Part shown: piece after piece, positions 6,472 to 50,966 of the stretch
How positions within the stretch are numbered: position 1 is the first letter of the stretch
How the letters are laid out: the number at the start of each line of letters is the position of its first letter
IMG/VR virus record: IMGVR_UViG_3300045988_076522
DNA length: 64,000 bases
Strand: one strand, 5' to 3'
DNA from: a virus
The notes under the pieces: generated by a model
Database searches by the model: none
What the model was told of the DNA's origin: nothing
What the model saw: only the letters and a program-made list of their open reading frames with translations
Translations under genes and position numbers: made by a program

Positions 6472-6553
6472 AGTTTATAAGTATTAAAGTTCAAAAGTTA
6501 ATGGGTCAATCTCTTTAGCTGACTCATCTCCAATCTCTGTGTCTAACGGCAAA

Positions 6554-7045
6554 TCAATGTTGTCGCTTTTCATCTTCTAATACCTCTATGTTATCTACTT
6601 CAGGCTCTTCCGGCCTTTCAGCATTACCAACTAATACGAAGAGGTCGTCTTGACCTTTCATCGTAGTTACTGTAAATGTATCGCCATACTGGCGTAGCAT
6701 GTCATTAGCTTTACCTCTACAGCTGACAGACAGACTCTTAGTAAGTTTGTTTCCACCTTTGGTTCCAAAGGCTTCATCAGTTCCTATAACGGGGAAAGTG
6801 ATTCCGTCAATTTTCTGATATTTAATACTAAGTCTATCTTCCCAAGCAACTCCCATTAATTGGGCAGCTGCTTTATTAAGTATGTACTTGTTAGGGTCTA
6901 GGGTAATTTGCGGTTCAGATGTCTCTGGAACCTCTTCCTTGACTGTTCTAGTCTTTACTTCTTCTTTGACAATTTCCTGCTTTAGAGATTTATACTCTCC
7001 AGTAGCTGGGTCAAAGTCCAAAGTTAACAGCATTTTAACTATCAT
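6554..7045 (-). CDS. Hypothetical protein
   Basis: 163-aa ORF in the replication module. Confidence 0.45.
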   Translation of the reverse strand: MIVKMLLTLDFDPATGEYKSLKQEIVKEEVKTRTVKEEVPETSEPQITLDPNKYILNKAAAQLMGVAWEDRLSIKYQKIDGITFPVIGTDEAFGTKGGNKLTKSLSVSCRGKANDMLRQYGDTFTVTTMKGQDDLFVLVGNAERPEEPEVDNIEVLEDEKRQH

Positions 7046-16854: not shown

Positions 16855-17125
16855 TCACTAGAGTAGACCTTACCTCATTAGAAGTAAAGAATAATCTAAT
16901 AACTAATCTGAATTTGACCCTAAACGGCAGTACGAATATCGTTCTGCGCGATTAGCACTACATTAAATATAACGTAGCCTAAAGTCCGTTACCATAAACT
17001 GATAACAATAATGCCAATGCCTGGCATTAGGTGTGTTGCTAGGAGCAACGAAGAAGAGCCTACACCCCCCCCAGTGATATTCTGGCTGGAATGTCTATTC
17101 CATAACCTATCACCATACATAAGAA

Positions 17126-19916: not shown

Positions 19917-20855
19917 TTATAGCATTAAATTGTTAATACGTTTATATTCTTCAAACACTTTGTCCTCTGATTCTTCTCCCCACATACTGTGAATGAGAAT
20001 ACCATAAGCACAAGGCTGGTACACAATAGGGTCTACTGCCTTCTTAGTGATTGTAACCTCTGGATTGTTTAATTGACTAGGAGGGCAAGCTACAAATAGC
20101 TCATTTCTACCTATCTTAACAGCATCAAAGGAAACTATGTTAGGGTAGCTAAAAGCCTTTACATCAGCAGGAAGGCCGGGATTCTTGTTAATTATACTAG
20201 ACAGCCTGAGTGTGCCTTCTGTATCAGGGCCAATAACTATGTGATTGTGTGATTCTATGTATTTCTTCAGATTGTTCAACATAGTTTCACTGTCACTGTA
20301 TCCGTAGTTAATACCTGTAACATAATAATATGCCCCATTAGCATACTCCAACCCTAAATCAGAGAACATTGGTCCTTCACCATTAAGTTTACGCTTAACT
20401 TCTAAGATTTCTCTAATATTACGGTCAGGAATCACTCCAGTGTACTGTTTTAGTAGACCTTTGACAAGTTTATACTTCTTACAAACATCATCAAATTGTT
20501 TAGAACCAACTAGAAGAGTACTCTCTCCGAACACTTCTCTTGCACGCTTTACGAAACTAAACAAGTTCTTAGCGCGCATGGCATCCAGAGCTATCTGATT
20601 ATATTCCGATATTTTAGCTTGCAATAACCTAGCATTCTTTGAGCTGCCCAGTCCAGCATCAACCAACGTGTTGTATTCTCTTACTAATGTATCTCTATTA
20701 GGAATATCAACTGATGTCTTGGAAACAGAACGTAGATATTCCTCCATACATAAAGCAAGAGCCATAGCTATGTTGGACTGAATAGTCATCACCGGCACGT
20801 CAACCACTTCTGGAGTTATAACTTCAGAATCATTGCGTTTTAGAAATCTAAACAT
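19917..20855 (-). CDS. Paralog-family protein A (unknown function; C-terminal motif IHSMWGEESEDKVFEEYKR)
   Basis: Shares AGLG(S/G)(S/T)KNA, a G/Y-rich middle and the SMWGEE C-terminus with 28373..29224 and with the decayed copy at 22871..23745. Confidence 0.55.
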   Translation of the reverse strand: MFRFLKRNDSEVITPEVVDVPVMTIQSNIAMALALCMEEYLRSVSKTSVDIPNRDTLVREYNTLVDAGLGSSKNARLLQAKISEYNQIALDAMRAKNLFSFVKRAREVFGESTLLVGSKQFDDVCKKYKLVKGLLKQYTGVIPDRNIREILEVKRKLNGEGPMFSDLGLEYANGAYYYVTGINYGYSDSETMLNNLKKYIESHNHIVIGPDTEGTLRLSSIINKNPGLPADVKAFSYPNIVSFDAVKIGRNELFVACPPSQLNNPEVTITKKAVDPIVYQPCAYGILIHSMWGEESEDKVFEEYKRINNLML

Positions 20856-22867
20856 CAGAAATTGACTTTTAAAGTTCTACTAAATGTTCCGTCCACTTTA
20901 ACAATAACGGAATTACGCATAGTAGATGAGAACCCTAATCCACTCAATTGATGTTCTTGGTAAGGAGTCTTCATCTTATCAGCTAGAACCTCAAATACCT
21001 TACGGTGAGGAGTTAGCTCACTGTTAAGATATTCGTTAAAGAATCCACGAACAGGCTCCGGATTCTTGCAATCATCCAACATAAAGAAGTAATGTTTATT
21101 GCCAATACCCTGCTCATCCCAATAATTGGGAGACAGCATCATCACGTTCACCTTATGGAACTTGTTAGTATCAATATTCCATAGGCTTACTGACGAATGG
21201 CTAGTACTGGGTATTAGCTCTCTTATTTGGATACCTTTAGATTTACTGTAAGTAATCTCGGCAACCATGACATTCTCTTTATGTTTAACGGGTTTGTCAT
21301 AGACAAATTGTCGAACTTCTCCATTGTGTTCTATTTCCAATGTAAATCCTGTATCAACAGATTCTCTACAATGAAAGTTATTGACATACACAACATACTT
21401 ACCTTCAAGCATCTTGCGTTCGTTAACCCATATGATGTTCTCAACGGGTTTGCGAGTTTTGCCATATCCAGCATTTTCATCCACGTCTAGCTTACCACCA
21501 CTTCTGCCGATTCTGTTGGAGTAATAAATTTCAAGATTATTAGGTTCAACGACATGCAAATCCAAGTCATCATAGTTAGACCATGCCAACGAACATCTTA
21601 AGAATCCTTCAGTCTGACCACCAGCAGCTCTTACTTTCTCTTTAATAGAATCAGCTACTCCTCCATTATATGTCCAAGCAAAGTTGTTTGGCCATTTAAA
21701 TAGATTCTTAGCATCCTTATTAACAGGAGCTGTAAGAGTTACTAAGTTATTAGACAGCCTACTCTCCATTAACACTTCTATGTTAGTGGCAGTGGGTACC
21801 ACATTAGCAATGAAATCATCAATGCTAATTTCAGTTAACTTGTCAAACTTCTTAGGATTAACTTTAGTGTCTGCGGCCAGTTCCTCGAATATGTTTCCGG
21901 CCATTACCTTCTTGGCATCACGGTTAGCGAATATAACATTGTTGACTGTTATATCCTCTAAAGCAGCATGTCTACGAGGTAGAGAATCCATAAGACCTAG
22001 TTCCTGCACTTTCTTCTGTGCTTCCTCAATCATTCTTTTAGTAACAATTGACTTAGGTCTTTGATAGTTCTCTGGAGCCATGATACGTTCGTATGCAGTC
22101 ACACAATCGTCCAATTCAAGTCCTGATGATATATTTACCAACAATGTACCAATTGCCGTATTACGAATGCGTGCACATCCTACACGATTGAAGTTTGCCC
22201 AACACCAGTTGTCTTTCTCTTCATCAGGTAATGAATCATAGTATCTTTTATGACCCAGGAATACACTTAAGTCATTTTTAAACTGTTCTCCTCTATATAA
22301 AGCATTCTGACCTATTAAGTCCAGAACTGTTTCTATAGAATCGATAGTTAATTCCTCCAGTGCACGTTTGAACACTTCCTTAGTTGTGCGTAAAGTCCCC
22401 ATTACAGCAGATACGGATTCAGTTCCTGTATACACCAATTGATTTGGCATATGATAGTAAAGATGATTCCAGGTAATTACTTTAGGGCCTTGCAAACTGT
22501 CAATATAGACATTGTTTCTATCAATTCCTAGTTCATAATCACGAGTGATAAAAACATCTACAACTGGTTTTGATTTCACTAATGCATCGAGATTTCTAGC
22601 TACAGTAGCATAAGGTTCATCCAACTGTAGGTTCTCCCACATGGTTACTACTTTATTGTCTTTAATGGCGACAACTCTACCATAATGTCTGATATAATGT
22701 TTACAATTGTTGCAATTATGAGACTGTCTCTCTTCCTCCGGAAAGGAATTAAGATAACAATCCCATAATGCATCCTTGTCTACATTAGTCAGAAAGAGCA
22801 TGTCTGCACCAGCAGCTAGTTGATTAAACTGCGCATGGACTGCTCTTTTAAACTTGACAAATTCCAT
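20855..22867 (-). CDS. Large hypothetical protein (670 aa)
   Basis: Long uninterrupted ORF. N-terminal HNCNNCKHY Cys/His cluster. No confident motif. Confidence 0.55.
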   Translation of the reverse strand: MEFVKFKRAVHAQFNQLAAGADMLFLTNVDKDALWDCYLNSFPEEERQSHNCNNCKHYIRHYGRVVAIKDNKVVTMWENLQLDEPYATVARNLDALVKSKPVVDVFITRDYELGIDRNNVYIDSLQGPKVITWNHLYYHMPNQLVYTGTESVSAVMGTLRTTKEVFKRALEELTIDSIETVLDLIGQNALYRGEQFKNDLSVFLGHKRYYDSLPDEEKDNWCWANFNRVGCARIRNTAIGTLLVNISSGLELDDCVTAYERIMAPENYQRPKSIVTKRMIEEAQKKVQELGLMDSLPRRHAALEDITVNNVIFANRDAKKVMAGNIFEELAADTKVNPKKFDKLTEISIDDFIANVVPTATNIEVLMESRLSNNLVTLTAPVNKDAKNLFKWPNNFAWTYNGGVADSIKEKVRAAGGQTEGFLRCSLAWSNYDDLDLHVVEPNNLEIYYSNRIGRSGGKLDVDENAGYGKTRKPVENIIWVNERKMLEGKYVVYVNNFHCRESVDTGFTLEIEHNGEVRQFVYDKPVKHKENVMVAEITYSKSKGIQIRELIPSTSHSSVSLWNIDTNKFHKVNVMMLSPNYWDEQGIGNKHYFFMLDDCKNPEPVRGFFNEYLNSELTPHRKVFEVLADKMKTPYQEHQLSGLGFSSTMRNSVIVKVDGTFSRTLKVNF

Positions 22868-22870
22868 AAT

Positions 22871-23745
22871 CTTATAAAGGTTTAATATTGTCGAATATAT
22901 TGTCTTCGGCTTCTACTCCCCATTTAGAGTGAATCATTACCCCTATTGGAGTTACTTGAAACACAAATGGGTCATTATTGATAGGAATAATCTTCCTTTC
23001 CGGAACTGTAAACTGCATCGTTTTTCATTCATTTTCTTCAATAGGAGCGGCAATGAATAAGTCAGCACTGCTACATTCTTTTTGAATCAGCAATGTTCAC
23101 ATCATGTGCCTTGGCTTTTATTAAGGATATGAAAGAATGGATATGCATTCATTCTAGCCTTATTTTCTACTCAAATACGTAAGTCCAATATGGGAAGGTT
23201 CCTGCCTAATGAAGTACCTTCCAACCGGATAGGACATGCTATCAATAGGCATAGGGTGAGTAGCAACTTGCATACCAGTAACATACCGTAAAGGTGAACC
23301 GTTTCCGCTATAGTTAACATACTCATTTTGCTTCAAGTGCTTGAGCAGTGGCCATTACCTTAGAGATTTCATCAATGTTCTCGTCAGGCACAGAACCTTT
23401 ATAAGCTGATAGTCTTCCAACAACTAATCCATACTTAACATTCAGATTAATGAAATCCTCCTCCTTAAGTATCAATGAGCCAGGGAAATGTCTTTGCAAA
23501 AAGCTATAACATTTTAAGACTTTAAGGTCCTCTTCCGAAGTGATAGCATCACCTACTTCTTTAGAATTAGTAAATCCTAAAGCTTTCAGTTTGACAGCCT
23601 TATCAACTAGTTGATGATTCGGATTCAGACCCTTAATAGTCTTCATGTACTCTACAGCCATTAGAGTATAAGCTAATTGCACTTCTTGGGCTGTGAATCT
23701 CTTTGTGCCTACAGACGTATCTGTAGAAGGACTAAAATTGTTCAT
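22871..23745 (-). pseudogene. Decayed third copy of the SMWGEE paralog family (frameshift plus several in-frame stops)
   Basis: The N-terminal half (23323..23745) ends at AAA-TGA. Homology continues in the +1 frame (EYVNYSGNGSPLRYVTG...HIGLTYLSRK). A 66-nt segment then carries five stops (TAA, TAG, TAA, TAA, TGA), followed by ADLFIAAPIEENE-TGA-KTMQFTVPERKIIPINNDPFVFQVTPIGVMIHSKWGVEAED. Together these align over the full length of paralogs A and B. Confidence 0.55.
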
Positions 23746-23865
23746 AATTACTTTTGTTTAACTGAACCTGGTCTGGTAGTAGCTCTCTTAAATGAATCAG
23801 ATTGCTTATCCCACCAAGCCTGTCGGTCTTTAAGACGTTGTACTTTCTTCTTGTATTTCATAGGT

Positions 23866-24339
23866 TTATCCTATTTCGTTACTAGCATTATAAGCAAGCT
23901 TGTCAGCTTCCTTATTATATTCATCACTTGCGTGACCTTTACACCACTCAACAGACACTACTTTATGCCTGTTCACAGCCTTATCAAGACGTTCCCACAA
24001 ATCAGTATTGGCTTTCCTCTTCCACCCTTTAGTAAGAGTTCCTACAATATACATAGAATCTGTTACTATTGTAATTTCAGAAGGTTCCTTTATGGATTCC
24101 AGGGCAACTATGGCAGCCATTTGCTCCATTCGCTGATTGGTGCTGTTCTTATACATCTTACTGTATTGGAATATCTTCTTGTCATCCTCTAAAATGACAA
24201 AGCCTATTCCCCCTTGATTTCTCGCAGGAGAATAGGCACCATCACAGTATATTCTGTACTTATGCGTCGGCATTAGGATTCTCAACAAAATCCTCATCAT
24301 CCTCATCTTCTTCGGTTTCGGATATGACATCCTCATCAA
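23866..24339 (-). CDS. rnhA: Ribonuclease H (RNase HI-like). The true start is probably the internal MPTHKY near 24273.
   Basis: IYCDGAYSP...GGIGFVI; TNQRMEQMAAIVALESI; ITIVTDSMYIV; WCKGH...NKEADKLA. These match the conserved RNase H DEDD segments. Confidence 0.65.
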   Translation of the reverse strand: MMRMSYPKPKKMRMMRILLRILMPTHKYRIYCDGAYSPARNQGGIGFVILEDDKKIFQYSKMYKNSTNQRMEQMAAIVALESIKEPSEITIVTDSMYIVGTLTKGWKRKANTDLWERLDKAVNRHKVVSVEWCKGHASDEYNKEADKLAYNASNEIG

Positions 24340-24790
24340 TAAGATGCTTAACCCACATACCTAAGATAAAGATGACATAGAATTTGTCTTCCTCCTGTTT
24401 GTAGTTAACCTTGTCAGAGACTTCATTAACTACATCTAACATTGTGAACTCCTCTTTAGCCATAGCATCATCAGCTATAGCAGACATTTCTTCTACATAA
24501 GGTCTAGCCTTCTGCATCGCTTCGTCAAAACTCTTTACTAAGGCTATGCCTTCATCACCTCTAATTTGCATAGCAACAGATAGAGGTTGTTGCAATTCAT
24601 TTCTAAAGAAGCCCAAATAGAAAGCCTTCTCTACATCTCCGTTTACGAAGTCATTGAAAGATTTAGCTTTCATTACTTCCTCCACTTTGAAATCAATTTC
24701 TGATACGTCTCTGATTTTGTCCATAATGTTATGATAGCAACCCACCAATCTTCTCGGCCATGGCTGTTGCTTTGTTAGAAACTGCTTCAA
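24260..24790 (-). CDS. Hypothetical protein with an acidic C-terminal tail
   Basis: 176 aa ending ISETEEDEDDEDFVENPNADA. Confidence 0.45.
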   Translation of the reverse strand: MKQFLTKQQPWPRRLVGCYHNIMDKIRDVSEIDFKVEEVMKAKSFNDFVNGDVEKAFYLGFFRNELQQPLSVAMQIRGDEGIALVKSFDEAMQKARPYVEEMSAIADDAMAKEEFTMLDVVNEVSDKVNYKQEEDKFYVIFILGMWVKHLIDEDVISETEEDEDDEDFVENPNADA

Positions 24791-24980
24791 GGTTTGCAGC
24801 TTCAGTTTGTAATTCGATAATCTCTTGTTCTCTAACCTCTTTCTCTGCTTGAGCTCTAGATGCTACCTCTTTAAGATTGGTAACAGCTTTCTCAAATACA
24901 TCAATAATCTTAGCTGATTCCTCGGCTAGTGAGGTACTTGTTACTTTAGCCGGTTCGGCTGATTGTTTCTTTCCAAACAT
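24729..24980 (-). CDS. Hypothetical coiled-coil protein
   Basis: 83-aa ORF. Confidence 0.35.
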   Translation of the reverse strand: MFGKKQSAEPAKVTSTSLAEESAKIIDVFEKAVTNLKEVASRAQAEKEVREQEIIELQTEAANLEAVSNKATAMAEKIGGLLS

Positions 24981-25012
24981 CTTATAGGATTAGAATTACA
25001 GGGTTCAGGGTG

Positions 25013-25094
25013 AGCGGCTGTCGGGAATCGAACCCAATCTATCACTTGTGCGCATACTAAAATTAGTGATGTGCCCTCCTTTACACTACAACCG
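25013..25094 (-). tRNA. Atypical tRNA-like gene (identity undetermined)
   Basis: Clear T-arm TTGGGTTCGATTCCCGA and acceptor GCGGTTG/CAGCCGC. The anticodon region does not fold canonically. A 6-bp stem (ATCACT/AGTGAT) encloses an 18-nt loop. Confidence 0.35.
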
Positions 25095-25362
25095 CATGGA
25101 GCAGTGGTTAGAATACTAATAGTCAAACACTAATAGTCATTCCTAAAGAGGTGTTCTGCAACCACCCCACAGTCAGCGCTAAACTGCACGTCTTATTACA
25201 TACGCTCAACTCTGCTTTAGTTGTCATCGCTGGACTTTATTTAACCCAGGTTCCAGCCTGGTCTATACTAGTTTCCTTTTAAGCTTACCACACTTGGAAC
25301 ATACTAGTAAGTATCTGTTACAATCAGTATAGCTAGTTTTTGCTATTATAGTCCATTCATGC

Positions 25363-26556
25363 CTACATGCCAGTTTCTCTAGCCATTTCTTGAATAGTTC
25401 TTTCATAATCAATTCGTTTTACTAATGGATATAGTTGCCCATAGCCGTGATTAACTGTTATACACCTAGATGTTATAGACAGACGATAGTGAGCATTGTT
25501 AATTTCGTTAGTAAGATACTCCATAGTTACAGGAGTTACTCCGTCACTAAATGTAACAGTTATGCCCGCTTCTATATCTTCTACACTCTTAGTAAGAGCA
25601 TCTAAGCTACTTTGAATTTCTGCATATCTAGGATTAGGAATCTGCTCCGTCTCTAAATGCATAAAATGCTTAGATGTTTCACCTATATAACCTCCTTTGC
25701 TACATGGAATCGGAAGATAAACCCAGTTGTTATCAAACTTAACAGCTTGTTCATAAGCATAAGTTCCAGGTCTAAAGAGTTGCTGGTACGTATCGACTTT
25801 AACTACTTCTCTAGTCCCAGGAAGTCTGCCTTGCTTGCCGTCTAACCACCACCTTATATAGTCACGAGCATCACGCACATGATATACTGGCAACTCAACT
25901 GGAGTACCATTAACCATACACCAATAATGACCTAGCAACCTCGGTCTATAAAAGTCAGAGTCTGTTCCATTGGAGTCAGGATTAGAATTGGCAAATCCAT
26001 AACAGTAATCATAATAGTCTGCTGCTTTATGAGGTTTAGCAATCTTACCAAACTTGGGCAAAGCATGATTCCTGTTCTCCTTCCATTGCTTAGTACTAAT
26101 GTTGTATCGACGACCTCTAGGAGTCTGCTCAACAGATTGTACTAATCCATTATCATCAACTCTAAAGAACGCCTGTCTCCACCTATAATCAGTGAAGTAG
26201 TCGTCTAGGTATTCAGTTTTGTCAGTATTCTTAATTGGCTTAATCCACTCATTCCAGGCTTTGGCTAGCTCTTTATAAGGCTTACCTACATACTTGGCTA
26301 TGAATTTCACAATCCTAGATTCTTTAACGTATCCATAGCCATGGTCCCAAGCTATATGACAACTTTTGTCTAATACCTTTCTACCATATCCTCTCTGCGC
26401 TGCCACTTCTTTAGATACTCTCAAATTGAAATCAGCATCAAAATCAGCTAGCGTCACTTTAGTAAGGTGTCTAGGATAGTAGCTTGGATTACGAGTATGC
26501 TTGCTTTTACGTTTATACTCTTTCCTATGGCCAAGTTTAAGTCTTCGTTCACTCAT
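25363..26556 (-). CDS. Hypothetical protein with a basic N-terminus
   Basis: 397 aa. N-terminal KR-rich segment. W/Y-rich. Confidence 0.5.
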   Translation of the reverse strand: MSERRLKLGHRKEYKRKSKHTRNPSYYPRHLTKVTLADFDADFNLRVSKEVAAQRGYGRKVLDKSCHIAWDHGYGYVKESRIVKFIAKYVGKPYKELAKAWNEWIKPIKNTDKTEYLDDYFTDYRWRQAFFRVDDNGLVQSVEQTPRGRRYNISTKQWKENRNHALPKFGKIAKPHKAADYYDYCYGFANSNPDSNGTDSDFYRPRLLGHYWCMVNGTPVELPVYHVRDARDYIRWWLDGKQGRLPGTREVVKVDTYQQLFRPGTYAYEQAVKFDNNWVYLPIPCSKGGYIGETSKHFMHLETEQIPNPRYAEIQSSLDALTKSVEDIEAGITVTFSDGVTPVTMEYLTNEINNAHYRLSITSRCITVNHGYGQLYPLVKRIDYERTIQEMARETGM

Positions 26557-26557
26557 G

Positions 26558-26842
26558 TTATAGTATTTTAGTTACTTTACCAAATACGGATTTGGTCCAC
26601 CCATTAATCTTACCATGATTGTTGCCTATAAGAACTCCTCTGTCTCCCTTAGCTTTGATTAAGTGAGTATAGTATCTACCTTTAACTTTGCAGAATACTA
26701 TATCACCTACCTCTACATCGCTAAGATTTATAGGACTCAAGACATGCTCTTGGCCAGATTTGATTAGAGGAGTCATAGAGTTTCCCTTCTCTGAGGTTCT
26801 GAAGGATTTTCCTTCGGTCAATAGTCTCTCCTTGTAATGCAT
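26558..26842 (-). CDS. S24 (LexA/UmuD-like) peptidase-domain protein
   Basis: GNSMTPLI (G-x-SM Ser motif), then GDIVFCKVKGRYYTHLIKAKGDRGVLIGNN. This resembles the LexA C-terminal domain with the catalytic Lys. Confidence 0.45.
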   Translation of the reverse strand: MHYKERLLTEGKSFRTSEKGNSMTPLIKSGQEHVLSPINLSDVEVGDIVFCKVKGRYYTHLIKAKGDRGVLIGNNHGKINGWTKSVFGKVTKIL

Positions 26843-27212
26843 CGGCTTTAGACATTAAATATACAAAGTTTAATCTCTCTTCCATGGTAGAGCCATTACT
26901 TATCCTTTCAAACAAGGTTAACTCTTGCCCATTCTTGTAGTTATAGTAAGATATCAACTCATTATATCTGACAGTTTTACTATTCAACGAAGCTATAGTC
27001 ATTGGATATCTTCTTAGCACTACTCCCCTATATAAATCAACAAGTTCACCCAATGAGTTGGCAATCTTTAATAACCTAACTACATTGGGTGAACCGTGTT
27101 TCTTGTACCTAATAGCATAATTCTCCAGAGCAGCATCCCAATCATGGAACACGTGTTGAGCTTGAGTTAAATCAATCTCAACTATTTTACGCAGGAACTC
27201 TTCTATAGTCAT
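26721..27212 (-). CDS. Hypothetical protein
   Basis: 163-aa ORF. Confidence 0.45.
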   Translation of the reverse strand: MTIEEFLRKIVEIDLTQAQHVFHDWDAALENYAIRYKKHGSPNVVRLLKIANSLGELVDLYRGVVLRRYPMTIASLNSKTVRYNELISYYNYKNGQELTLFERISNGSTMEERLNFVYLMSKADALQGETIDRRKILQNLREGKLYDSSNQIWPRACLESYKS

Positions 27213-27213
27213 A

Positions 27214-27390
27214 TTAATTAGATATTGTAGGTGATGTTAACTTGTCAATTAGATTCTTCATTGCTTCTTCACCAGCAGCAAAACCTTCAGAATACCCGAT
27301 TTTATATGCCTTCTCTATAGATACAGCAACAGCTTCCATGACGCTATTGCCCTCATACTGTTTCTTTAATTCTTCTAATAGTTCTTTCAT
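27214..27390 (-). CDS. Small hypothetical protein (58 aa)
   Basis: Hand translation: MKELLEELKKQYEGNSVMEAVAVSIEKAYKIGYSEGFAAGEEAMKNLIDKLTSPTISN. Weakly similar to the small ORF at 29641..29805. Confidence 0.35.
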   Translation of the reverse strand: MKELLEELKKQYEGNSVMEAVAVSIEKAYKIGYSEGFAAGEEAMKNLIDKLTSPTISN

Positions 27391-27416
27391 AAATCCTCCT
27401 TCCTTTAATTATTAGT

Positions 27417-27500
27417 AGCTTGAGTGGGATTCGAACCCACACGTCCATTTCTGGACACCAGAGCTTAAATCTGGGGCGTCTACCAATTTCGCCATCAAGC
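27417..27500 (-). tRNA. tRNA-Leu (anticodon TAA), type II
   Basis: Acceptor GCTTGAT/ATCAAGC. Anticodon stem CCAGA/TCTGG with loop TTTAAGC. Long variable arm. T-arm GTGGGTTCGAATCCCAC. Confidence 0.65.
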
Positions 27501-27507
27501 CATACCC

Positions 27508-27684
27508 TTATACTGACATCATGACCTTGATTGTAACTACAATTATCATTCCTATAGTACTTATAGCAGCTATACTTAAGAATATCTTAACCCATTTAAA
27601 GTCACAATCCCATATAGTTAGTAACATAGCTATTAATGCAGCCACAAATGCAATGACTACAGTAATCATTAATGCTGTTTCCAT
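27508..27684 (-). CDS. Small hydrophobic membrane protein (58 aa)
   Basis: Hand translation METALMITVVIAFVAALIAMLLTIWDCDFKWVKIFLSIAAISTIGMIIVVTIKVMMSV. Two predicted TM helices. Confidence 0.35.
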   Translation of the reverse strand: METALMITVVIAFVAALIAMLLTIWDCDFKWVKIFLSIAAISTIGMIIVVTIKVMMSV

Positions 27685-27735
27685 ATCAATCTCTTACTAA
27701 GTCTATCCAATTAATTAGGATATGATACAACCACC

Positions 27736-28131
27736 TCATAATACGTAATCGCAATAAGTGTCAACAAAATCCTTAGCTTCTTTTAAACCACATTTAGCAG
27801 ATTCTTTTACATGCTTAATTGCTTGCAGTTTGGAACCAGTCGATACAAACTGTTTCATCTTAAAGAAGTCTTCACATGACAAATCAATTGTATTATTCCA
27901 ACGCTTCCTGCATGCAAGCATTGCATCACTATACTCTTGAGGATGTTCTGTCCAGGTAATTTGTTGGTCTAATATAACTGTACAAGTTCCATCAAGTATA
28001 TCATACTCTCTAGATTCTACGGTGAATTTACCAGCTTCTAACACTACTATATCAGTAGGAAATGGAATCATCTCTGATGAGATTGATACTTCCTCTATTG
28101 TCTTATCATCTTTTACAAATTTTACAAACAT
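27736..28131 (-). CDS. Hypothetical protein
   Basis: 131-aa ORF. Confidence 0.45.
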   Translation of the reverse strand: MFVKFVKDDKTIEEVSISSEMIPFPTDIVVLEAGKFTVESREYDILDGTCTVILDQQITWTEHPQEYSDAMLACRKRWNNTIDLSCEDFFKMKQFVSTGSKLQAIKHVKESAKCGLKEAKDFVDTYCDYVL

Positions 28132-28156
28132 AATCTTTAAGTATTAACTAATAATG

Positions 28157-28230
28157 TGGCGAGAAGGTGACTCGAACACCCAACCTTGATATTATGAGTA
28201 TCACGCTCTGACCAGTTGAGCTATCTCGCC
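28157..28230 (-). tRNA. tRNA-Met/Ile2 (anticodon CAT)
   Basis: GGCGAGA...TCTCGCC acceptor. Anticodon stem TGATA/TATCA with loop CTCATAA. T-arm GGGTGTTCGAGTCACCT. Confidence 0.65.
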
Positions 28231-28372
28231 ATTAATAATCCGCCTGGTAGGGCTGCGAGCTGCCTTACCAATTATTGACGTCAGCTAATCTATGGAATAG
28301 CACGTCTGCTAAACTGAAATAGCCCTATAGTCATTTCTACACCTGCTCACATTTAAGTGGTGGATTACATGT

Positions 28373-29224
28373 TTATCGGTATTTATCGAACATGCTGTCT
28401 GATGCTTCTTCTCCCCACATAGACACGATAACAATACCTACTTTGGTAGCCCTAAATACTATTGGGTCTTCTAACCTTCTTTTACGGTCTTCTTCAGCTT
28501 TAGAGAAGATTTCTATGCGAATATTATTCTCCATAGTATCATAAGGCGCTGCAATTAGCCAAGTGTTATGGTCTAAATATGAGGTGCCAAGATGTAGGTA
28601 ATCTTCCTCCTTATAACTTCCACCTATAGACCTCATGTACTGATAACCACGGTCAATACCTTTGAATACAAATGGGAATCTAGAGAAATACTCAACAAGC
28701 CGTTTGGTCATGTCCTTAGACATTCTTGAATCTATTCTCGCAGCTTCAACCCAACTGACGTAGTTAAGATTTAAAGAGTTCAAAGCGTTAGAAGCCTTTG
28801 CTATTTGTGACACATTCTCACTTGGAATGAATCCGCTGAAGGTCGATATTGGACCACAATACAAATTGTACTTCTTCAGGATTGCAAAGAAATCCTCGTA
28901 AGTTACAACCAGTGCATCAGGATACGATTCTTTAATCCAGGATGTTATTTCGTTAACCTTCTTCAGGTCTAATTTCTCTGGACCTAAAGCTGACTTATAC
29001 TTCTTAGACTCGAGAATAGTCCTAAGGGTATCTGCATTCTTAGTTCCACCCAGACCTGCTGCTTCCAACTTATCAAGCTCCTCTTTGATTTGCTCGGAAT
29101 TGTCAAAGTCTTGATTGCCTTCTACGTACTTCTTATAGTACTCCATAGATGCTGTTACTAAGGCTAAACGTAACGCATCTGCACTCAATTTCTCCATACT
29201 ATGATAAATGTTCTTTAATATCAA
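28373..29224 (-). CDS. Paralog-family protein B (C-terminal VSMWGEEASDSMFDKYR)
   Basis: Homologous along its length to 19917..20855 (AGLGGTKNADTL, YEDFFAILKKYNL, SMWGEE). Confidence 0.55.
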   Translation of the reverse strand: MILKNIYHSMEKLSADALRLALVTASMEYYKKYVEGNQDFDNSEQIKEELDKLEAAGLGGTKNADTLRTILESKKYKSALGPEKLDLKKVNEITSWIKESYPDALVVTYEDFFAILKKYNLYCGPISTFSGFIPSENVSQIAKASNALNSLNLNYVSWVEAARIDSRMSKDMTKRLVEYFSRFPFVFKGIDRGYQYMRSIGGSYKEEDYLHLGTSYLDHNTWLIAAPYDTMENNIRIEIFSKAEEDRKRRLEDPIVFRATKVGIVIVSMWGEEASDSMFDKYR

Positions 29225-32197: not shown

Positions 32198-33265
32198 CTA
32201 AACTAACTTATCGAATATCATGGGCTGTATCGACATCCATAAATTTGCTAGCATTTCTCGCTCTGCGTCAGATGCTTCATCCCAATGTGATACGTACAAT
32301 TTCTCCGTTCGTTCATTCCTATAAGGAACCTTAAATGAACGGTTAATGCGTACACTGTGTGCGAATAGGTCTTTGTCGAAATCAATAGCCCTAAGCGTCT
32401 TCTGGAAATCGTTGAACTTATTATTAGGGTCATCGACATCCCTAACAGACATTCCAGAAGGAAACGGGCCGTTACCATGCCTTGTTATATAAGGACGAGT
32501 TACATAACAAGTTTGGATTTCTTTACGTATACCTGCTTTCCGCAACAGCTCGTAAGCGTTTTGTGAAGTTGTATTAGACGGAGTACAATAAGGCATTATG
32601 CCGAATCTTTGGTCAAGCAATATTCCCTGTGAACCTTCAAACACTAGGTTATCATAATTCAACAAGCAATCTTCATTAACCGTACCTGTATGTAAGAAAT
32701 AAGCATGTGCTAACCTACACCAGTTGTCTAGGTCTATCGAAGGATATTTACTAGACATGTTGTAATAGTTATCCACTATGGCATTTAGTTTCTCACGCAG
32801 TATGTAAGGATTCATACAATCTACAACTGTTAAGCTGTATCCTGCCTTAACTCGGTCCAAACAAGCTTTAAACCCTGTACCTACAGTACCATGTCGTAAG
32901 TTCTCTTCGTTATTAACTTGGGAATAGACATCGAAGGGAATTACAACTTGGCAGTGAGGGTGATACTGAACAATGGGATGAACTCCCATTTTAGCTAAGT
33001 CTGCACCCTCCAACATAGAGGTAATTGGGTCTACAGTACAGTATTCGGACCAGTACGTCGGCACTCCAAGTAAGGTTCCGCTGCCAAAGTTACTAAAGGT
33101 GTGCATCATGTCTCCATGCTTTACAGTATGTCCTACTTGATGTCCACCACTAAACCTGACCACTAACACAGACTCTCGCTTACCTATGTACTTGTTACAT
33201 AAGTTGTGAACTGTCTGTCCCTTACCTTCGTCTCCAAAGAATGTTCCTAATACAATACTAATCAT
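32198..33265 (-). CDS. Adenylosuccinate synthetase homolog (PurA/PurZ family), short form
   Basis: P-loop IVLGTFFGDEGKGQ. VVRFSGGHQVGHTV corresponds to the PurA RFQGGHNAGHTV segment. HGTVGTGFKAC corresponds to TTKRGIGP. At 355 aa it is shorter than bacterial PurA (~430 aa). Confidence 0.6.
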   Translation of the reverse strand: MISIVLGTFFGDEGKGQTVHNLCNKYIGKRESVLVVRFSGGHQVGHTVKHGDMMHTFSNFGSGTLLGVPTYWSEYCTVDPITSMLEGADLAKMGVHPIVQYHPHCQVVIPFDVYSQVNNEENLRHGTVGTGFKACLDRVKAGYSLTVVDCMNPYILREKLNAIVDNYYNMSSKYPSIDLDNWCRLAHAYFLHTGTVNEDCLLNYDNLVFEGSQGILLDQRFGIMPYCTPSNTTSQNAYELLRKAGIRKEIQTCYVTRPYITRHGNGPFPSGMSVRDVDDPNNKFNDFQKTLRAIDFDKDLFAHSVRINRSFKVPYRNERTEKLYVSHWDEASDAEREMLANLWMSIQPMIFDKLV

Positions 33266-48157: not shown

Positions 48158-48537
48158 CTCTTTGTTTAAATTTATTGTTATGAGAGTCTTTCTTTATTCT
48201 AAACAATAAACAAGCGGCATTACGGCAATCGGACATACGTTAACCCGCTCGCCACTTACAGACCGTAATGCACACTTGACCAGGCAGGAAAGAGGTTTGC
48301 TTGGTGACCTATCTGCATGCTGATTATATAATACAGACCGTGTAGATTCTCTCTTACACAATATCTATAGTAGATTTGCACTACTGTTTTCTGATGCTTA
48401 ATCAGGTGAACTCCTACTGTTCGAATAGATACAGGTTTCAACTCTTTGATATAGCCTTTAAGTCATAGACATACTCCGGAATATGTCTACTGGTTCTTCA
48501 GACCAAGTTTTGCTACCACCATTCGTCAATAGTGGAT

Positions 48538-50385: not shown

Positions 50386-50412
50386 AAAATTGATATTTAA
50401 ACGTTAATAATA

Positions 50413-50966
50413 GTGGACCTAGGCGGAGTCGAACCGCCGTCCAAACAACCCTCATTAATAAGATTACGTGTGTCTCTATTTTATTACATCAGCTGTTGAG
50501 TTCAGCATGTAGGTAGTTTTACTAGTCTTATCTTGGAACCAGGTAATTAGGCTGCAATAGCCAAACCAGTACACCAAAAGCTAATTTACAAACTACCAAA
50601 CTTAAAGGTTCAGAAGCTGACGCTTCCAAACCTGGGCTGACCGAAGTCGCTCTTCCACCACTCCATTTACGTTGGAGAACGTTTCTATTTGTAACCCATA
50701 GATAGGTAGTGGAGATTTCAGCTTTACTAACCTTTGGCTTTCAAGTTAAGTGGGCTGCTCTATACGCTTCTTCCCACACCTCTTCTGTTTCTAGGTCTCT
50801 CCAATTAACCCGACTTAGAGCTAAATTAATAGATAAGCCAGCAGCTTAGGCTGCCATTCTTACTTCAGTGTTTCCACTTAAATTGCTGTATCATTATTAA
50901 AGAGTTGGTACGAACTCTACACGTCTTACTAACTTGTAATCGCCTGTCAAAACCAAATCTAGGCCC
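50413..50966 (-). ncRNA. ssrA: tmRNA-like gene (ssrA-like), about 550 nt
   Basis: Minus-strand 5' end GGGCCTAGATTTGGTTTTGACAGG matches the tmRNA 5' consensus GGGGCUGAUUCUGGAUUCGACGGG. The 3' end GGACGGCGGTTCGACTCCGCCTAGGTCCA matches GGACGGGGGUUCAAAUCCCCC-acceptor. The 5' and 3' ends pair (GGGCCTA/TAGGTCC). No ORF longer than 60 aa occurs in the 700 bp. A possible tag frame is ...GNTEVRMAA-TAA. Confidence 0.5.

What the first reader, a model, noticed from the sequence alone, without database searches (positions are those of the whole stretch)
19917..29224. Three-member paralog family (SMWGEE C-terminal motif), with one copy decayed in an unusual way
The proteins at 19917-20855 (312 aa) and 28373-29224 (283 aa) are homologous over their full length. 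Shared segments include AGLGxxKNA, G/Y-rich middle segments and the C-terminal (I/V)SMWGEExxDxxFxxYKR. The locus 22871-23745 encodes a third copy of the right length (876 nt). That copy has several defects:
- It is broken at A-AAA-TGA (23323) and continues in the +1 frame.
- A 66-nt stretch then contains TAA, TAG, TAA, TAA and TGA, and also forms a hairpin (AGAATG...CATTCT).
- A further in-frame TGA follows.
- The flanking coding segments remain well conserved.
This is either a recently decaying pseudogene or a gene needing frameshift and readthrough. The A-AAA-UGA context is the classic kind of +1 frameshift site stimulated by a stop codon.
Basis: seen in the sequence. Interest (0 to 1): 0.6.

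Follow-up and report, generated by a model that had tools for sequence, protein, structure and literature searches.

The report
Gut-phage gene killed by A-run insertions
The "decayed" third copy is a naturally occurring knockout allele of a normally intact gut-phage gene, broken only by seven extra A's in six short A-runs; it is not a programmed frameshift, though the burst-like, insertion-only way it was broken is unusual.

Summary
The three paralogs are real (A vs C, E=4e-20). They belong to a large unannotated family (1867 representative clusters) with no known fold.

The broken copy B (22872-23745, minus strand) is a null allele, not a recoded gene. Deleting 7 A's from six A-runs (23329...23021) restores a 288-aa ORF identical to the allele common in other strains of this ~185-kb human-gut phage. 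The hairpin is at chance level.

It is not an assembly error. The same allele occurs in independent assemblies, and other samples carry different sets of run expansions in B. One strain also has them in paralog A. The 2-kb gene between A and B is untouched.

Intact B is under purifying selection (piN/piS 0.14). It is nonetheless knocked out repeatedly by run insertions, nonsense mutations and deletions, in about 15% of loci sampled independently of B.

The odd part is the signature of the multi-hit alleles:
- insertions only (+1/+2) in runs of 3-4 bases;
- almost no accompanying substitutions (23 indel events vs 3);
- several different haplotype backgrounds;
- clustering within strains (P~1e-4).

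I infer bursts of local slippage-prone DNA synthesis, filtered by selection. The mechanism is unproven.

The parts
19917..20855 (-). Paralog A, intact, 312 aa
   Evidence: ORF. Profile E 1e-133. The exact sequence is on 464 contigs. piN/piS 0.13.
20855..22867 (-). 670-aa DUF8224 / phrog_1735 gene between A and B. Used as synteny anchor. It carries no run insertions in any strain examined.
   Evidence: piN/piS 0.09.
22872..23745 (-). Paralog B, null allele: 874 nt = the intact 867-nt ORF plus 7 inserted A's
   Evidence: Alignment to 22 close relatives. In-silico removal of the 7 bases gives a 288-aa protein identical to P0016.
23323..23745 (-). Residual N-terminal ORF of B (140 aa, ends ...QALEAK*). 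It corresponds to the N-terminal helical region of the family.
   Evidence: profile positions 16-160; in the model of A the last helix of that region ends at residue 159. The exact product is called on 14 contigs.
23326..23329 (-). Lesion 1: AAA->AAAA (intact ORF position 417). Creates AAA-TGA and the +1 frame change.
   Evidence: Found on six haplotype backgrounds.
23163..23166 (-). Lesion 2: AAA->AAAA (ORF position 579)
23116..23119 (-). Lesion 3: AAA->AAAA (ORF position 625)
23079..23083 (-). Lesion 4: AAAA->AAAAA (ORF position 660)
23032..23035 (-). Lesion 5: AAA->AAAA (ORF position 707)
23021..23025 (-). Lesion 6: AAA->AAAAA (+2; ORF position 716). Source of the 'further in-frame TGA'.
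23302..23304 (-). The only A-run of 3 or more bases inside the lesion zone that is not expanded in the window. It is expanded in L038, L039, L043 and L044.
22872..23018 (-). Residual C-terminal ORF of B (48 aa) carrying the conserved ...IHSKWGVEAED... motif. It lies in the +1 frame relative to the N-terminal piece.
28373..29224 (-). Paralog C, intact (274 aa from the ATG at 29197; 283 aa from the TTG)
   Evidence: Called as 274 aa in relatives.

Best explanation
SHOWN:
- Window 22872-23745(-) is a strain-level loss-of-function allele of an accessory phage gene. In most strains of the same ~185-kb human-gut phage this gene is one intact 288-aa ORF under purifying selection.
- The allele differs from the common intact allele only by seven extra A's (coding strand) in six runs of 3-4 A's. 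Every frameshift and in-frame stop follows from these insertions.
- No recoding is involved. At most the 140-aa N-terminal helical region can still be translated.
- The gene belongs to a large, unannotated protein family of unknown fold, with three paralogs in this genome.
- All three paralogs are repeatedly inactivated or rearranged in natural populations, by run insertions, nonsense mutations, deletions and paralog-paralog recombination.

INFERRED:
- The multi-hit alleles are not slow neutral decay. They arise in bursts: a local stretch of slippage-prone DNA synthesis (most plausibly repair- or recombination-associated gap filling) adds +1/+2 to most A (or T) runs it crosses.
- Such tracts survive only where a frameshift is tolerated, that is, in conditionally dispensable genes such as B and A and in intergenic DNA.
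- Why B is tolerated or even favoured as a null is unknown. One possibility is that its product is a liability in some hosts, such as a defence trigger.
For: Identity of the lesions:
- 22 close relatives lack exactly these 7 bases and have an open ORF.
- In-silico reversion gives a protein identical to P0016, which is on 51 contigs.

Real, not artefact:
- The window has no other indel private to it in the surrounding 12 kb.
- The same allele is in Logan SRR341690 and JGI 3300055909.
- The 140-aa product is on 14 contigs of independent samples, including a 54x SPAdes contig.
- L082 has 10 indels, all inside B, and none in ~5 kb of flanks. L039 has 9 in B, 6 in A and none in the 2-kb gene between them.

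B is functional when intact: piN/piS 0.137.

Recurrent loss:
- Nonsense alleles Y145*, Q159* and Q181*, several deletions, and first-hit insertions at 417, 579 and 660.
- B is broken in 6 of 41 loci sampled independently of B.
- A shows many deletion, chimera and fusion variants.

Burst-like origin:
- 23 indel events against 3 substitutions in six lineages, each about 0 substitutions from a different intact allele.
- 417+A lies on six haplotype backgrounds.
- 6 of 7 A-runs in the zone are hit, against 0 of 5 T/C runs.
- Run insertions outside A and B also come in same-strain pairs within 100 nt (5 observed vs 0.46 expected, P~1e-4).
- Essentially no clean run contractions were seen.

Precedent for local hotspots and showers from gap-filling synthesis at DNA breaks: Shee et al. 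2012, PMC3607216.
Against: - The burst model is inferred from population snapshots. No reads, pedigree or experiment were available.
- The nested sharing of 417+A and 579+A among alleles could also reflect stepwise accumulation plus recombination.
- The lesion patch is not bounded by a detectable recombination tract: the window is identical to L055 from 23905 to 19744.
- The link to the nearby polymorphic HNH homing-endonuclease site is only positional.
- Eight of the alleles (L038-L045) were ascertained through the exact 140-aa product, so they say nothing about lesions upstream of position 417.
- Intergenic A/T runs may be constrained, which would weaken the argument that the process is not genome-wide.
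- The function of the protein family is unknown, so the selective reason for loss is speculation.
Confidence: 0.8

Rival explanations
1. Programmed recoding: B is expressed as a full-length protein through a stop-stimulated +1 ribosomal frameshift at A-AAA-UGA, followed by readthrough or further shifts.
For: The AAA-UGA context exists at 23323-23329, and the frame downstream of it is the homologous one.
Against: - The site is absent from the intact orthologs (GCA-AAT-GAG) and is itself one of the insertions.
- Five more frame changes and TAA, TAG and TGA stops follow. Every frame has 3 to 12 stops across the zone.
- Lesion sets differ among strains.
- No Shine-Dalgarno-like stimulator lies in the 40 nt upstream.
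- The hairpin is at chance level.
Confidence: 0.02
2. Sequencing or assembly artefact: homopolymer over-calls in a poorly covered patch, with the true sequence intact.
For: All seven differences are single-base homopolymer length changes with zero substitutions, which is the classic look of homopolymer errors.
Against: - The same 7 insertions are seen in two other assemblies (L042, L051).
- There is an allelic series in independent samples and assemblers, including 54x coverage.
- The window has no other private indel in the 12 kb around B and only two more in ~58 kb.
- In L039 and L082 the lesions are gene-specific.
- The runs are only 3-4 bases long.
Confidence: 0.04
3. Ordinary gradual decay: B died once, and further run insertions then accumulated neutrally one by one, because this phage's replication has a genome-wide spectrum strongly biased towards +1 slippage in A/T runs. 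No bursts are needed.
For: - Nested allele series: 417 alone; 417+579+one more; 417+579+four more sites (window); L039 with 9 events, including +2 where the window has +1.
- An intergenic A-run at ~51093 varies from A3 to A6 among strains.
- The window strain has two further private +A events elsewhere.
Against: - 23 indel events against 3 substitutions on alleles that are otherwise identical to intact ones.
- First-hit nonsense alleles are about as common as first-hit run insertions. That implies a normal indel-to-substitution ratio for single events.
- 417+A lies on six backgrounds.
- Most intergenic runs are stable among strains ~1% diverged.
- Events outside A and B are clustered within strains.
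- Multi-hit alleles are at least as frequent as single-hit ones.
Confidence: 0.22
4. Targeted or selection-driven multi-hit killing. One version: repeated host attack on this locus (nuclease or CRISPR-type cleavage) followed by error-prone repair. Another version: positive selection for second-site knockouts, because a single +A in an A-run is leaky and the C-terminal domain is a liability, such as a defence trigger.
For: - Lesions concentrate in B and A but not in the gene between them.
- Many independent knockout types, including deletions.
- The gene is under purifying selection when intact, so loss looks conditional.
- The 417 stop falls at the end of the N-terminal helical region.
Against: - No defence or anti-defence homology was found, and no fold neighbour.
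- Selection alone does not explain why the secondary hits are only +1/+2 run insertions.
- No spacer or host data were available.
Confidence: 0.15

Closest known systems
Frameshift pseudogene or null allele made by Streisinger-type slippage at homopolymer runs (as at the A-run hotspots of phage T4 rII; own knowledge)
   Same: Single-base length changes inside mononucleotide runs destroy the reading frame. The gene is intact in sister strains. The lesions are polymorphic.
   Different: - The runs are very short (3-4 bases).
- The changes are insertions only.
- Six hits lie in 309 nt with no accompanying substitution.
- The same sites are hit on several haplotype backgrounds.
- Comparable multi-hit alleles exist in other strains and in a paralog.
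prfB (RF2)-type programmed +1 ribosomal frameshifting
   Same: A P-site codon followed by an in-frame UGA, with the homologous sequence continuing in the +1 frame.
   Different: The site is not conserved (it is absent from intact orthologs), there is no upstream stimulator, and five further lesions follow. The membership features were tested and not met.
Mutation showers / local hotspots from gap-filling synthesis at DNA double-strand breaks (Shee, Gibson & Rosenberg 2012, PMC3607216)
   Same: Several coincident mutations clustered within a few hundred bases to a few kb in one lineage, frameshift-prone, and independent of the genome-wide rate.
   Different: - Here it is seen only as natural alleles of an uncultivated phage.
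- The signature is +1/+2 insertions in A/T runs.
- No break site, polymerase or stress dependence has been shown.
- The adjacency to a homing-endonuclease site is only circumstantial.
Phase-variable contingency loci (homopolymeric-tract ON/OFF switches)
   Same: Gene expression is abolished by a change in homopolymer length. Alleles are polymorphic in populations.
   Different: Contingency tracts are single, long (usually 7 or more bases) and reversible. Here there are many short runs, insertions only, and multi-hit alleles that cannot revert in one step.
Diversity-generating retroelements (adenine-directed mutagenesis)
   Same: The changes are confined to adenines of one strand in a few hundred bases at the 3' half of a gene.
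   Different: DGRs substitute A with any base using a template repeat and a reverse transcriptase. Here there are no substitutions and no template repeat in the locus. No reverse transcriptase was seen among the genes examined, only an RNase H.

Membership tests
Polymorphic null allele (pseudogene) of a functional gene | Orthologous position holds an intact ORF in close relatives | tested here: met
   An intact 288-aa ORF is present in 20 of 23 IMG/VR loci, 8 of 10 anchor-sampled loci and 7 of 8 AAA-sampled loci.
Polymorphic null allele (pseudogene) of a functional gene | Lesions fully account for the disruption; reverting them restores the ORF | tested here: met
   Removing 7 bases gives a protein identical to P0016.
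Polymorphic null allele (pseudogene) of a functional gene | The intact gene is under purifying selection | tested here: met
   piN/piS 0.137 over 43 unique intact alleles.
Programmed +1 ribosomal frameshift (RF2/prfB type) | Shift site (slippery codon plus stop) conserved among orthologs | tested here: not met
   Intact orthologs read GCA-AAT-GAG. The AAA-TGA exists only in alleles carrying the +A insertion.
Programmed +1 ribosomal frameshift (RF2/prfB type) | One shift yields a complete open frame | tested here: not met
   Six stops remain in the +1 frame between 23330 and 23019, and five more frame changes are needed.
Programmed +1 ribosomal frameshift (RF2/prfB type) | Upstream Shine-Dalgarno-like stimulator | tested here: not met
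   There is no GGAGG-like element in the 40 nt upstream (sequence).
Stop-codon reassignment / suppressor-tRNA readthrough | Only one stop codon type occurs in frame, matched by a suppressor tRNA | tested here: not met
   TAA, TAG and TGA all occur in the zone. A CUA tRNA exists at 44072-44144, but the long ORFs of the window show no in-frame TAG.
Translational bypassing (T4 gene 60 type) | Non-coding gap with a conserved take-off hairpin, present in orthologs | tested here: not met
   The 'gap' is ordinary coding sequence in intact alleles. Hairpin z=-1.16.
Sequencing homopolymer artefact | Not reproducible across independent assemblies; spread over the contig | tested here: not met
   The identical allele is in L042 and L051, other samples carry an allelic series, and the lesions are gene-specific.
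Phase-variable contingency locus | A single long homopolymer tract varying by gain and loss | tested here: not met
   The runs are A3-A4. Almost all changes are gains, at up to 10 sites per allele.
Diversity-generating retroelement target | Template repeat plus reverse transcriptase; A-to-N substitutions | tested here: not met
   There is no repeat copy of the region within 22800-23800. The window allele has 0 substitutions. Only an RNase H gene is nearby. The absence of a reverse transcriptase in the rest of the genome was not tested.
Break-associated mutation shower (gap-filling synthesis) | Coincident clustered mutations in one lineage in excess of independent expectation | tested here: met
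   5 same-strain pairs within 100 nt vs 0.46 expected (P~1e-4). 23 indel events vs 3 substitutions.
Break-associated mutation shower (gap-filling synthesis) | Dependence on a DNA break and an error-prone polymerase | not testable with these tools
   Only positional: a present/absent HNH (NUMOD4) homing-endonuclease gene lies ~0.5 kb upstream of B in some strains. No recombination boundary was found at the patch.

The most novel reading that the evidence does not exclude
A very common human-gut phage is subject to a distinct, local, insertion-only hypermutation process. In a single episode this process adds one or two bases to most short A (or T) runs along a few hundred bases. It repeatedly and independently destroys members of one conditionally dispensable paralog family (B, sometimes A). 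This would be either a new signature of repair or R-loop-associated synthesis in phage replication, or the footprint of an unknown host-phage conflict centred on this protein family.
Probability: 0.3. Interest if true: 0.7.

Novelty: new variant of a known kind. Interest (0 to 1): 0.42.

Why it matters
For annotation, the locus should be labelled a strain-specific pseudogene of a 288-aa accessory gene, not a recoded gene. The window also holds a second +A frameshift, at ~6570.

More broadly, the allelic series gives a natural view of the mutational process in an uncultivated, ubiquitous gut phage. It shows substitution-free, clustered, insertion-only expansion of very short homopolymers. If this reflects episodic error-prone synthesis, it is a source of coincident mutations and rapid gene loss in phage populations.

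The data also flag a large protein family with no annotation or known fold (1867 representative clusters). Its members are under purifying selection yet are repeatedly knocked out, deleted and recombined. That pattern is expected of genes involved in phage-host conflict, so the family is a reasonable candidate for functional study.

Tried and rejected
- **Close cultured relative.** None in INPHARED by DNA. The anchor protein is only 47-50% identical to large Bacillus, Serratia and Salmonella myoviruses.
- **Recombination-tract test.** I asked whether the lesion patch coincides with a recombination boundary. It does not: identity to L055 runs from 23905 to 19744.
- **Mutator-lineage test.** I looked for private run insertions over ~58 kb of the window. 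Only two more were found, too few to call the strain a general mutator.
- **TAG recoding** linked to the CUA tRNA: no in-frame TAG in long ORFs.
- **Z-base link to A-specificity.** The PurA-like protein matches a PHROG named as a PurZ-like enzyme but scores only 22 bits against NCBIfam PurZ. Left as a lead.
- **Frame restoration.** I considered whether multi-hit alleles restore the frame (net +3, +3, +15, +9 in four of six). By my own arithmetic this is not significant (P~0.1), and it is moot because the first hit creates an immediate stop.
- **Literature.** Two searches for this signature in phages found nothing specific.


Full report
**1. What is in the window**

All genes in 1-57 kb lie on the minus strand. 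The window is phage-like, with 29 tRNAs, a tmRNA, and replication and nucleotide-metabolism genes.

The ORFs at 19917-20855 (A, 312 aa) and 28373-29224 (C; 274 aa from the ATG at 29197) are homologous end to end (BLASTP E=4e-20). A profile built from A, C and 17 database homologs finds exactly four matching pieces in the six-frame translation:
- A;
- C;
- a 140-aa piece at 23323-23745 (profile positions 16-160);
- a 48-aa piece at 22872-23018 (profile positions 264-305).

So the three-member family and the split third copy (B) are real. B reads in frame 0 up to GCA-AAA-TGA, continues in the +1 frame, then crosses a stretch with TAA, TAG and TGA, and has one more TGA before the conserved C-terminal motif.

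**2. What the breaks are**

I used the strongly conserved 670-aa gene between A and B (phrog_1735 / DUF8224) as an anchor and fetched 37 related loci from IMG/VR.

In 22 loci that are 97-99% identical in DNA, the B position differs from the window by the same 7 gap positions. Each is an extra A (coding strand) in the window, inside a run of A's:
- AAA->AAAA at 23326-23329, 23163-23166, 23116-23119 and 23032-23035;
- AAAA->AAAAA at 23079-23083;
- AAA->AAAAA at 23021-23025.

Most relatives have one open 288-aa frame there. Deleting the seven bases from the window restores an ORF whose product is identical to P0016, an allele recorded on 51 contigs. The 'A-AAA-UGA site' is itself one of them; the intact sequence reads GCA-AAT-GAG.

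**3. Programmed recoding is excluded**

The putative shift site is not conserved. Six separate corrections would be needed. All three stop codons occur. There is no upstream stimulator. The lesion set differs from strain to strain (section 4).

**4. It is not an assembly artefact**

- In the 12 kb around B, the seven A's are the only indels that separate the window from all relatives. Over ~58 kb of the window I found only two further private +A insertions.
- The truncated 140-aa product, which exists only in the broken allele, is called on 14 contigs from independent samples and assemblers (Logan, ENA, JGI), including a 54x SPAdes contig.
- Two of the loci (L042 from SRR341690, L051 from JGI 3300055909) carry exactly the window's seven insertions.
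- Other loci carry different sets:
  - 417+A only (L041, L045);
  - 417, 441, 579 (L038, L044);
  - 417, 579, 760 (L040);
  - nine sites, mostly +AA, plus +T and +TT (L039);
  - two +T (L049);
  - ten events, mostly +T (L082).
- The lesions are gene-specific. In L082 all ten lie in B and none in ~5 kb of flanks. In L039 there are nine in B, six in paralog A, one in-frame +AAA and one +AA elsewhere, and none in the 2-kb anchor between A and B. Error-prone sequencing would not spare the anchor.

**5. Population picture**

The phage is ~183-187 kb, judging by recurrent contig lengths. It comes from human gut and is very common: A's exact sequence is on 464 contigs, and the DnaB-like and AAA proteins are indexed in thousands of blocks.

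Where intact, B is under purifying selection (piN/piS 0.137), like A (0.132) and the anchor (0.092).

Yet in samples chosen without reference to B it is broken in 6 of 41 loci (3/23, 2/10, 1/8). A cluster of 209 distinct truncated B proteins exists beside 1559 intact ones. Independent knockouts include:
- nonsense alleles Y145*, Q159* and Q181*;
- first-hit insertions at 417, 579 and 660;
- +G in a G4 run, and deletions of 11, 14, ~260, ~274 and ~600 nt;
- loci retaining only the first 100-170 nt.

Paralog A shows many internal deletions, B-A chimeras (P0057, P0069, P0108) and anchor-A fusions. C is truncated or deleted in 2 of 10 loci.

In the wider clade the paralog content varies. Relatives with ~62% anchor identity keep an intact 273-aa B ortholog and lack A. 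One relative at 67% keeps A and lacks B. Relatives at 41-48% have neither next to the anchor.

**6. Why the multi-hit alleles look like bursts (inference)**

- (a) Each run-expansion allele is 0-2 substitutions from a different intact allele. Summed over six lineages there are 23 indel events against 3 substitutions, while intact alleles differ from each other by 7 substitutions on average.
- (b) 417+A sits on six haplotype backgrounds with diagnostic SNPs on both sides. This indicates recurrence rather than a single origin.
- (c) First-hit nonsense alleles are about as common as first-hit run insertions. Only a small fraction of substitutions create stops. The ordinary spectrum therefore has far more substitutions than run insertions, which is the opposite of what is seen for the secondary hits.
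- (d) In the window's zone, 6 of 7 A-runs of 3 or more bases are expanded, against 0 of 5 T/C runs (Fisher's exact P~0.008, my calculation).
- (e) Outside A and B, run insertions also come as same-strain pairs within 100 nt (5 observed, 0.46 expected, P~1e-4).
- (f) Clean events are almost all insertions (+1/+2).
- (g) Most intergenic runs are stable among strains ~1% diverged. This argues against a uniformly high genome-wide rate.

Together these points fit episodes of local, slippage-prone synthesis whose products survive only where frameshifts are tolerated. Local hotspots and 'showers' from gap-filling synthesis at double-strand breaks are documented in E. coli (PMC3607216). A present/absent HNH homing-endonuclease gene lies ~0.5 kb upstream of B in some strains, but I found no recombination boundary at the lesion patch. 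That link remains a hypothesis. Stepwise neutral decay under a slippage-biased spectrum, and defence-driven killing of the gene, remain possible (see the rival explanations).

**7. The protein family**

There is no Pfam, PHROG, PADLOC or PDB sequence match. An exhaustive profile search finds 1867 representative clusters at E<=1e-3 and 618 at E<=1e-10, mostly 260-350 aa. Ten distant members also have no Pfam or PHROG hit.

The AlphaFold model of A (pLDDT 73.9, pTM 0.67) shows an N-terminal helical part (about residues 29-160) and a C-terminal alpha/beta part (175-312). It has no structural neighbour. The 417+A stop falls at the end of the helical part, so the window allele can still encode that part alone. 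Whether that matters is unknown.

**8. Verdict**

The recoding reading is wrong, and so is the idea that the lesions are assembly errors.

The object itself, a strain-level frameshift pseudogene, is an ordinary kind of thing. What is unusual is the way it and its sister alleles were made, and the repeated loss of a family that is otherwise conserved.

Interest is moderate (0.42). Novelty: a new variant of a known kind.

Noticed in passing
window 6485-7045 (-), lesion at ~6570: A second frameshifted gene in this strain. A private +A in GATGAAAGCG (A3->A4) replaces the last 27 residues of a 186-aa protein with KRQH*. All 8 relatives compared lack the insertion. A further private +A lies in intergenic DNA at ~4343.
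   Followed up: partly
window 44072-44144 (-): A tRNA with a CUA anticodon (amber suppressor type; ARAGORN labels it Pyl) within a 29-tRNA island (17.9-51.6 kb). I found no in-frame TAG in long ORFs of the window, including the opposite-strand, low-GC block at 58-64 kb, so recoding is not evident here.
   Followed up: partly
window 50411-50966 (-) and 48428-48535 (-): Phage-encoded tmRNA (Rfam 83.7 bits) and a RAGATH-34 RNA (119 bits).
   Followed up: no
window 32198-33265 (-): A 355-aa adenylosuccinate-synthetase homolog of PurZ-like size. It matches phrog_1211, '2-aminooxy adenylosuccinate synthetase' (E 1.6e-46), but scores only 22 bits against NCBIfam PurZ (cut-off 300). If the phage used 2-aminoadenine this could bear on A-specific slippage. 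Not established.
   Followed up: partly
window ~17064-17072 (G-run on the minus strand, intergenic): A poly-G tract of about 7-11 bases, different in length in almost every strain compared. It is the only long hypervariable homopolymer seen in the neighbourhood.
   Followed up: no
window ~24253 (between the 176-aa gene and RNase H); L046, L048, L052, L054, L082, L105: Present/absent polymorphism of an HNH (NUMOD4/HNH_3) homing-endonuclease gene ~0.5 kb upstream of B. It is absent in the window and split into two ORFs in L046. Other homing-endonuclease-like inserts (NUMOD1, DUF723) vary elsewhere (L096, L097, L099, L104).
   Followed up: partly
window 24260-24980 (-); L039:1764-2486: The overlapping 83-aa and 176-aa ORFs are fused into one 240-aa ORF in L039 by a +AA in a short A-run. 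The 83-aa ORF also carries +T/+A events in L029 and L041.
   Followed up: no
L105:18463-19772; proteins P0057, P0069, P0108, P0088: Recombination between the paralogs B and A (B N-terminus joined to A C-terminus) and anchor-A fusions. These delete all or part of the 670-aa DUF8224 gene, so that gene is not strictly essential despite strong purifying selection.
   Followed up: partly
window ~51093 (intergenic, upstream of the tmRNA): An A-run that is A3 in the window and A4, A5 or A6 in other strains.
   Followed up: no
window 37072-39033 (-): A 653-aa protein with a flotillin (FloT)-like N-terminal region (NCBIfam E 5.9e-36, far below the family cut-off). The window's exact sequence is rare (4 contigs).
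   Followed up: no
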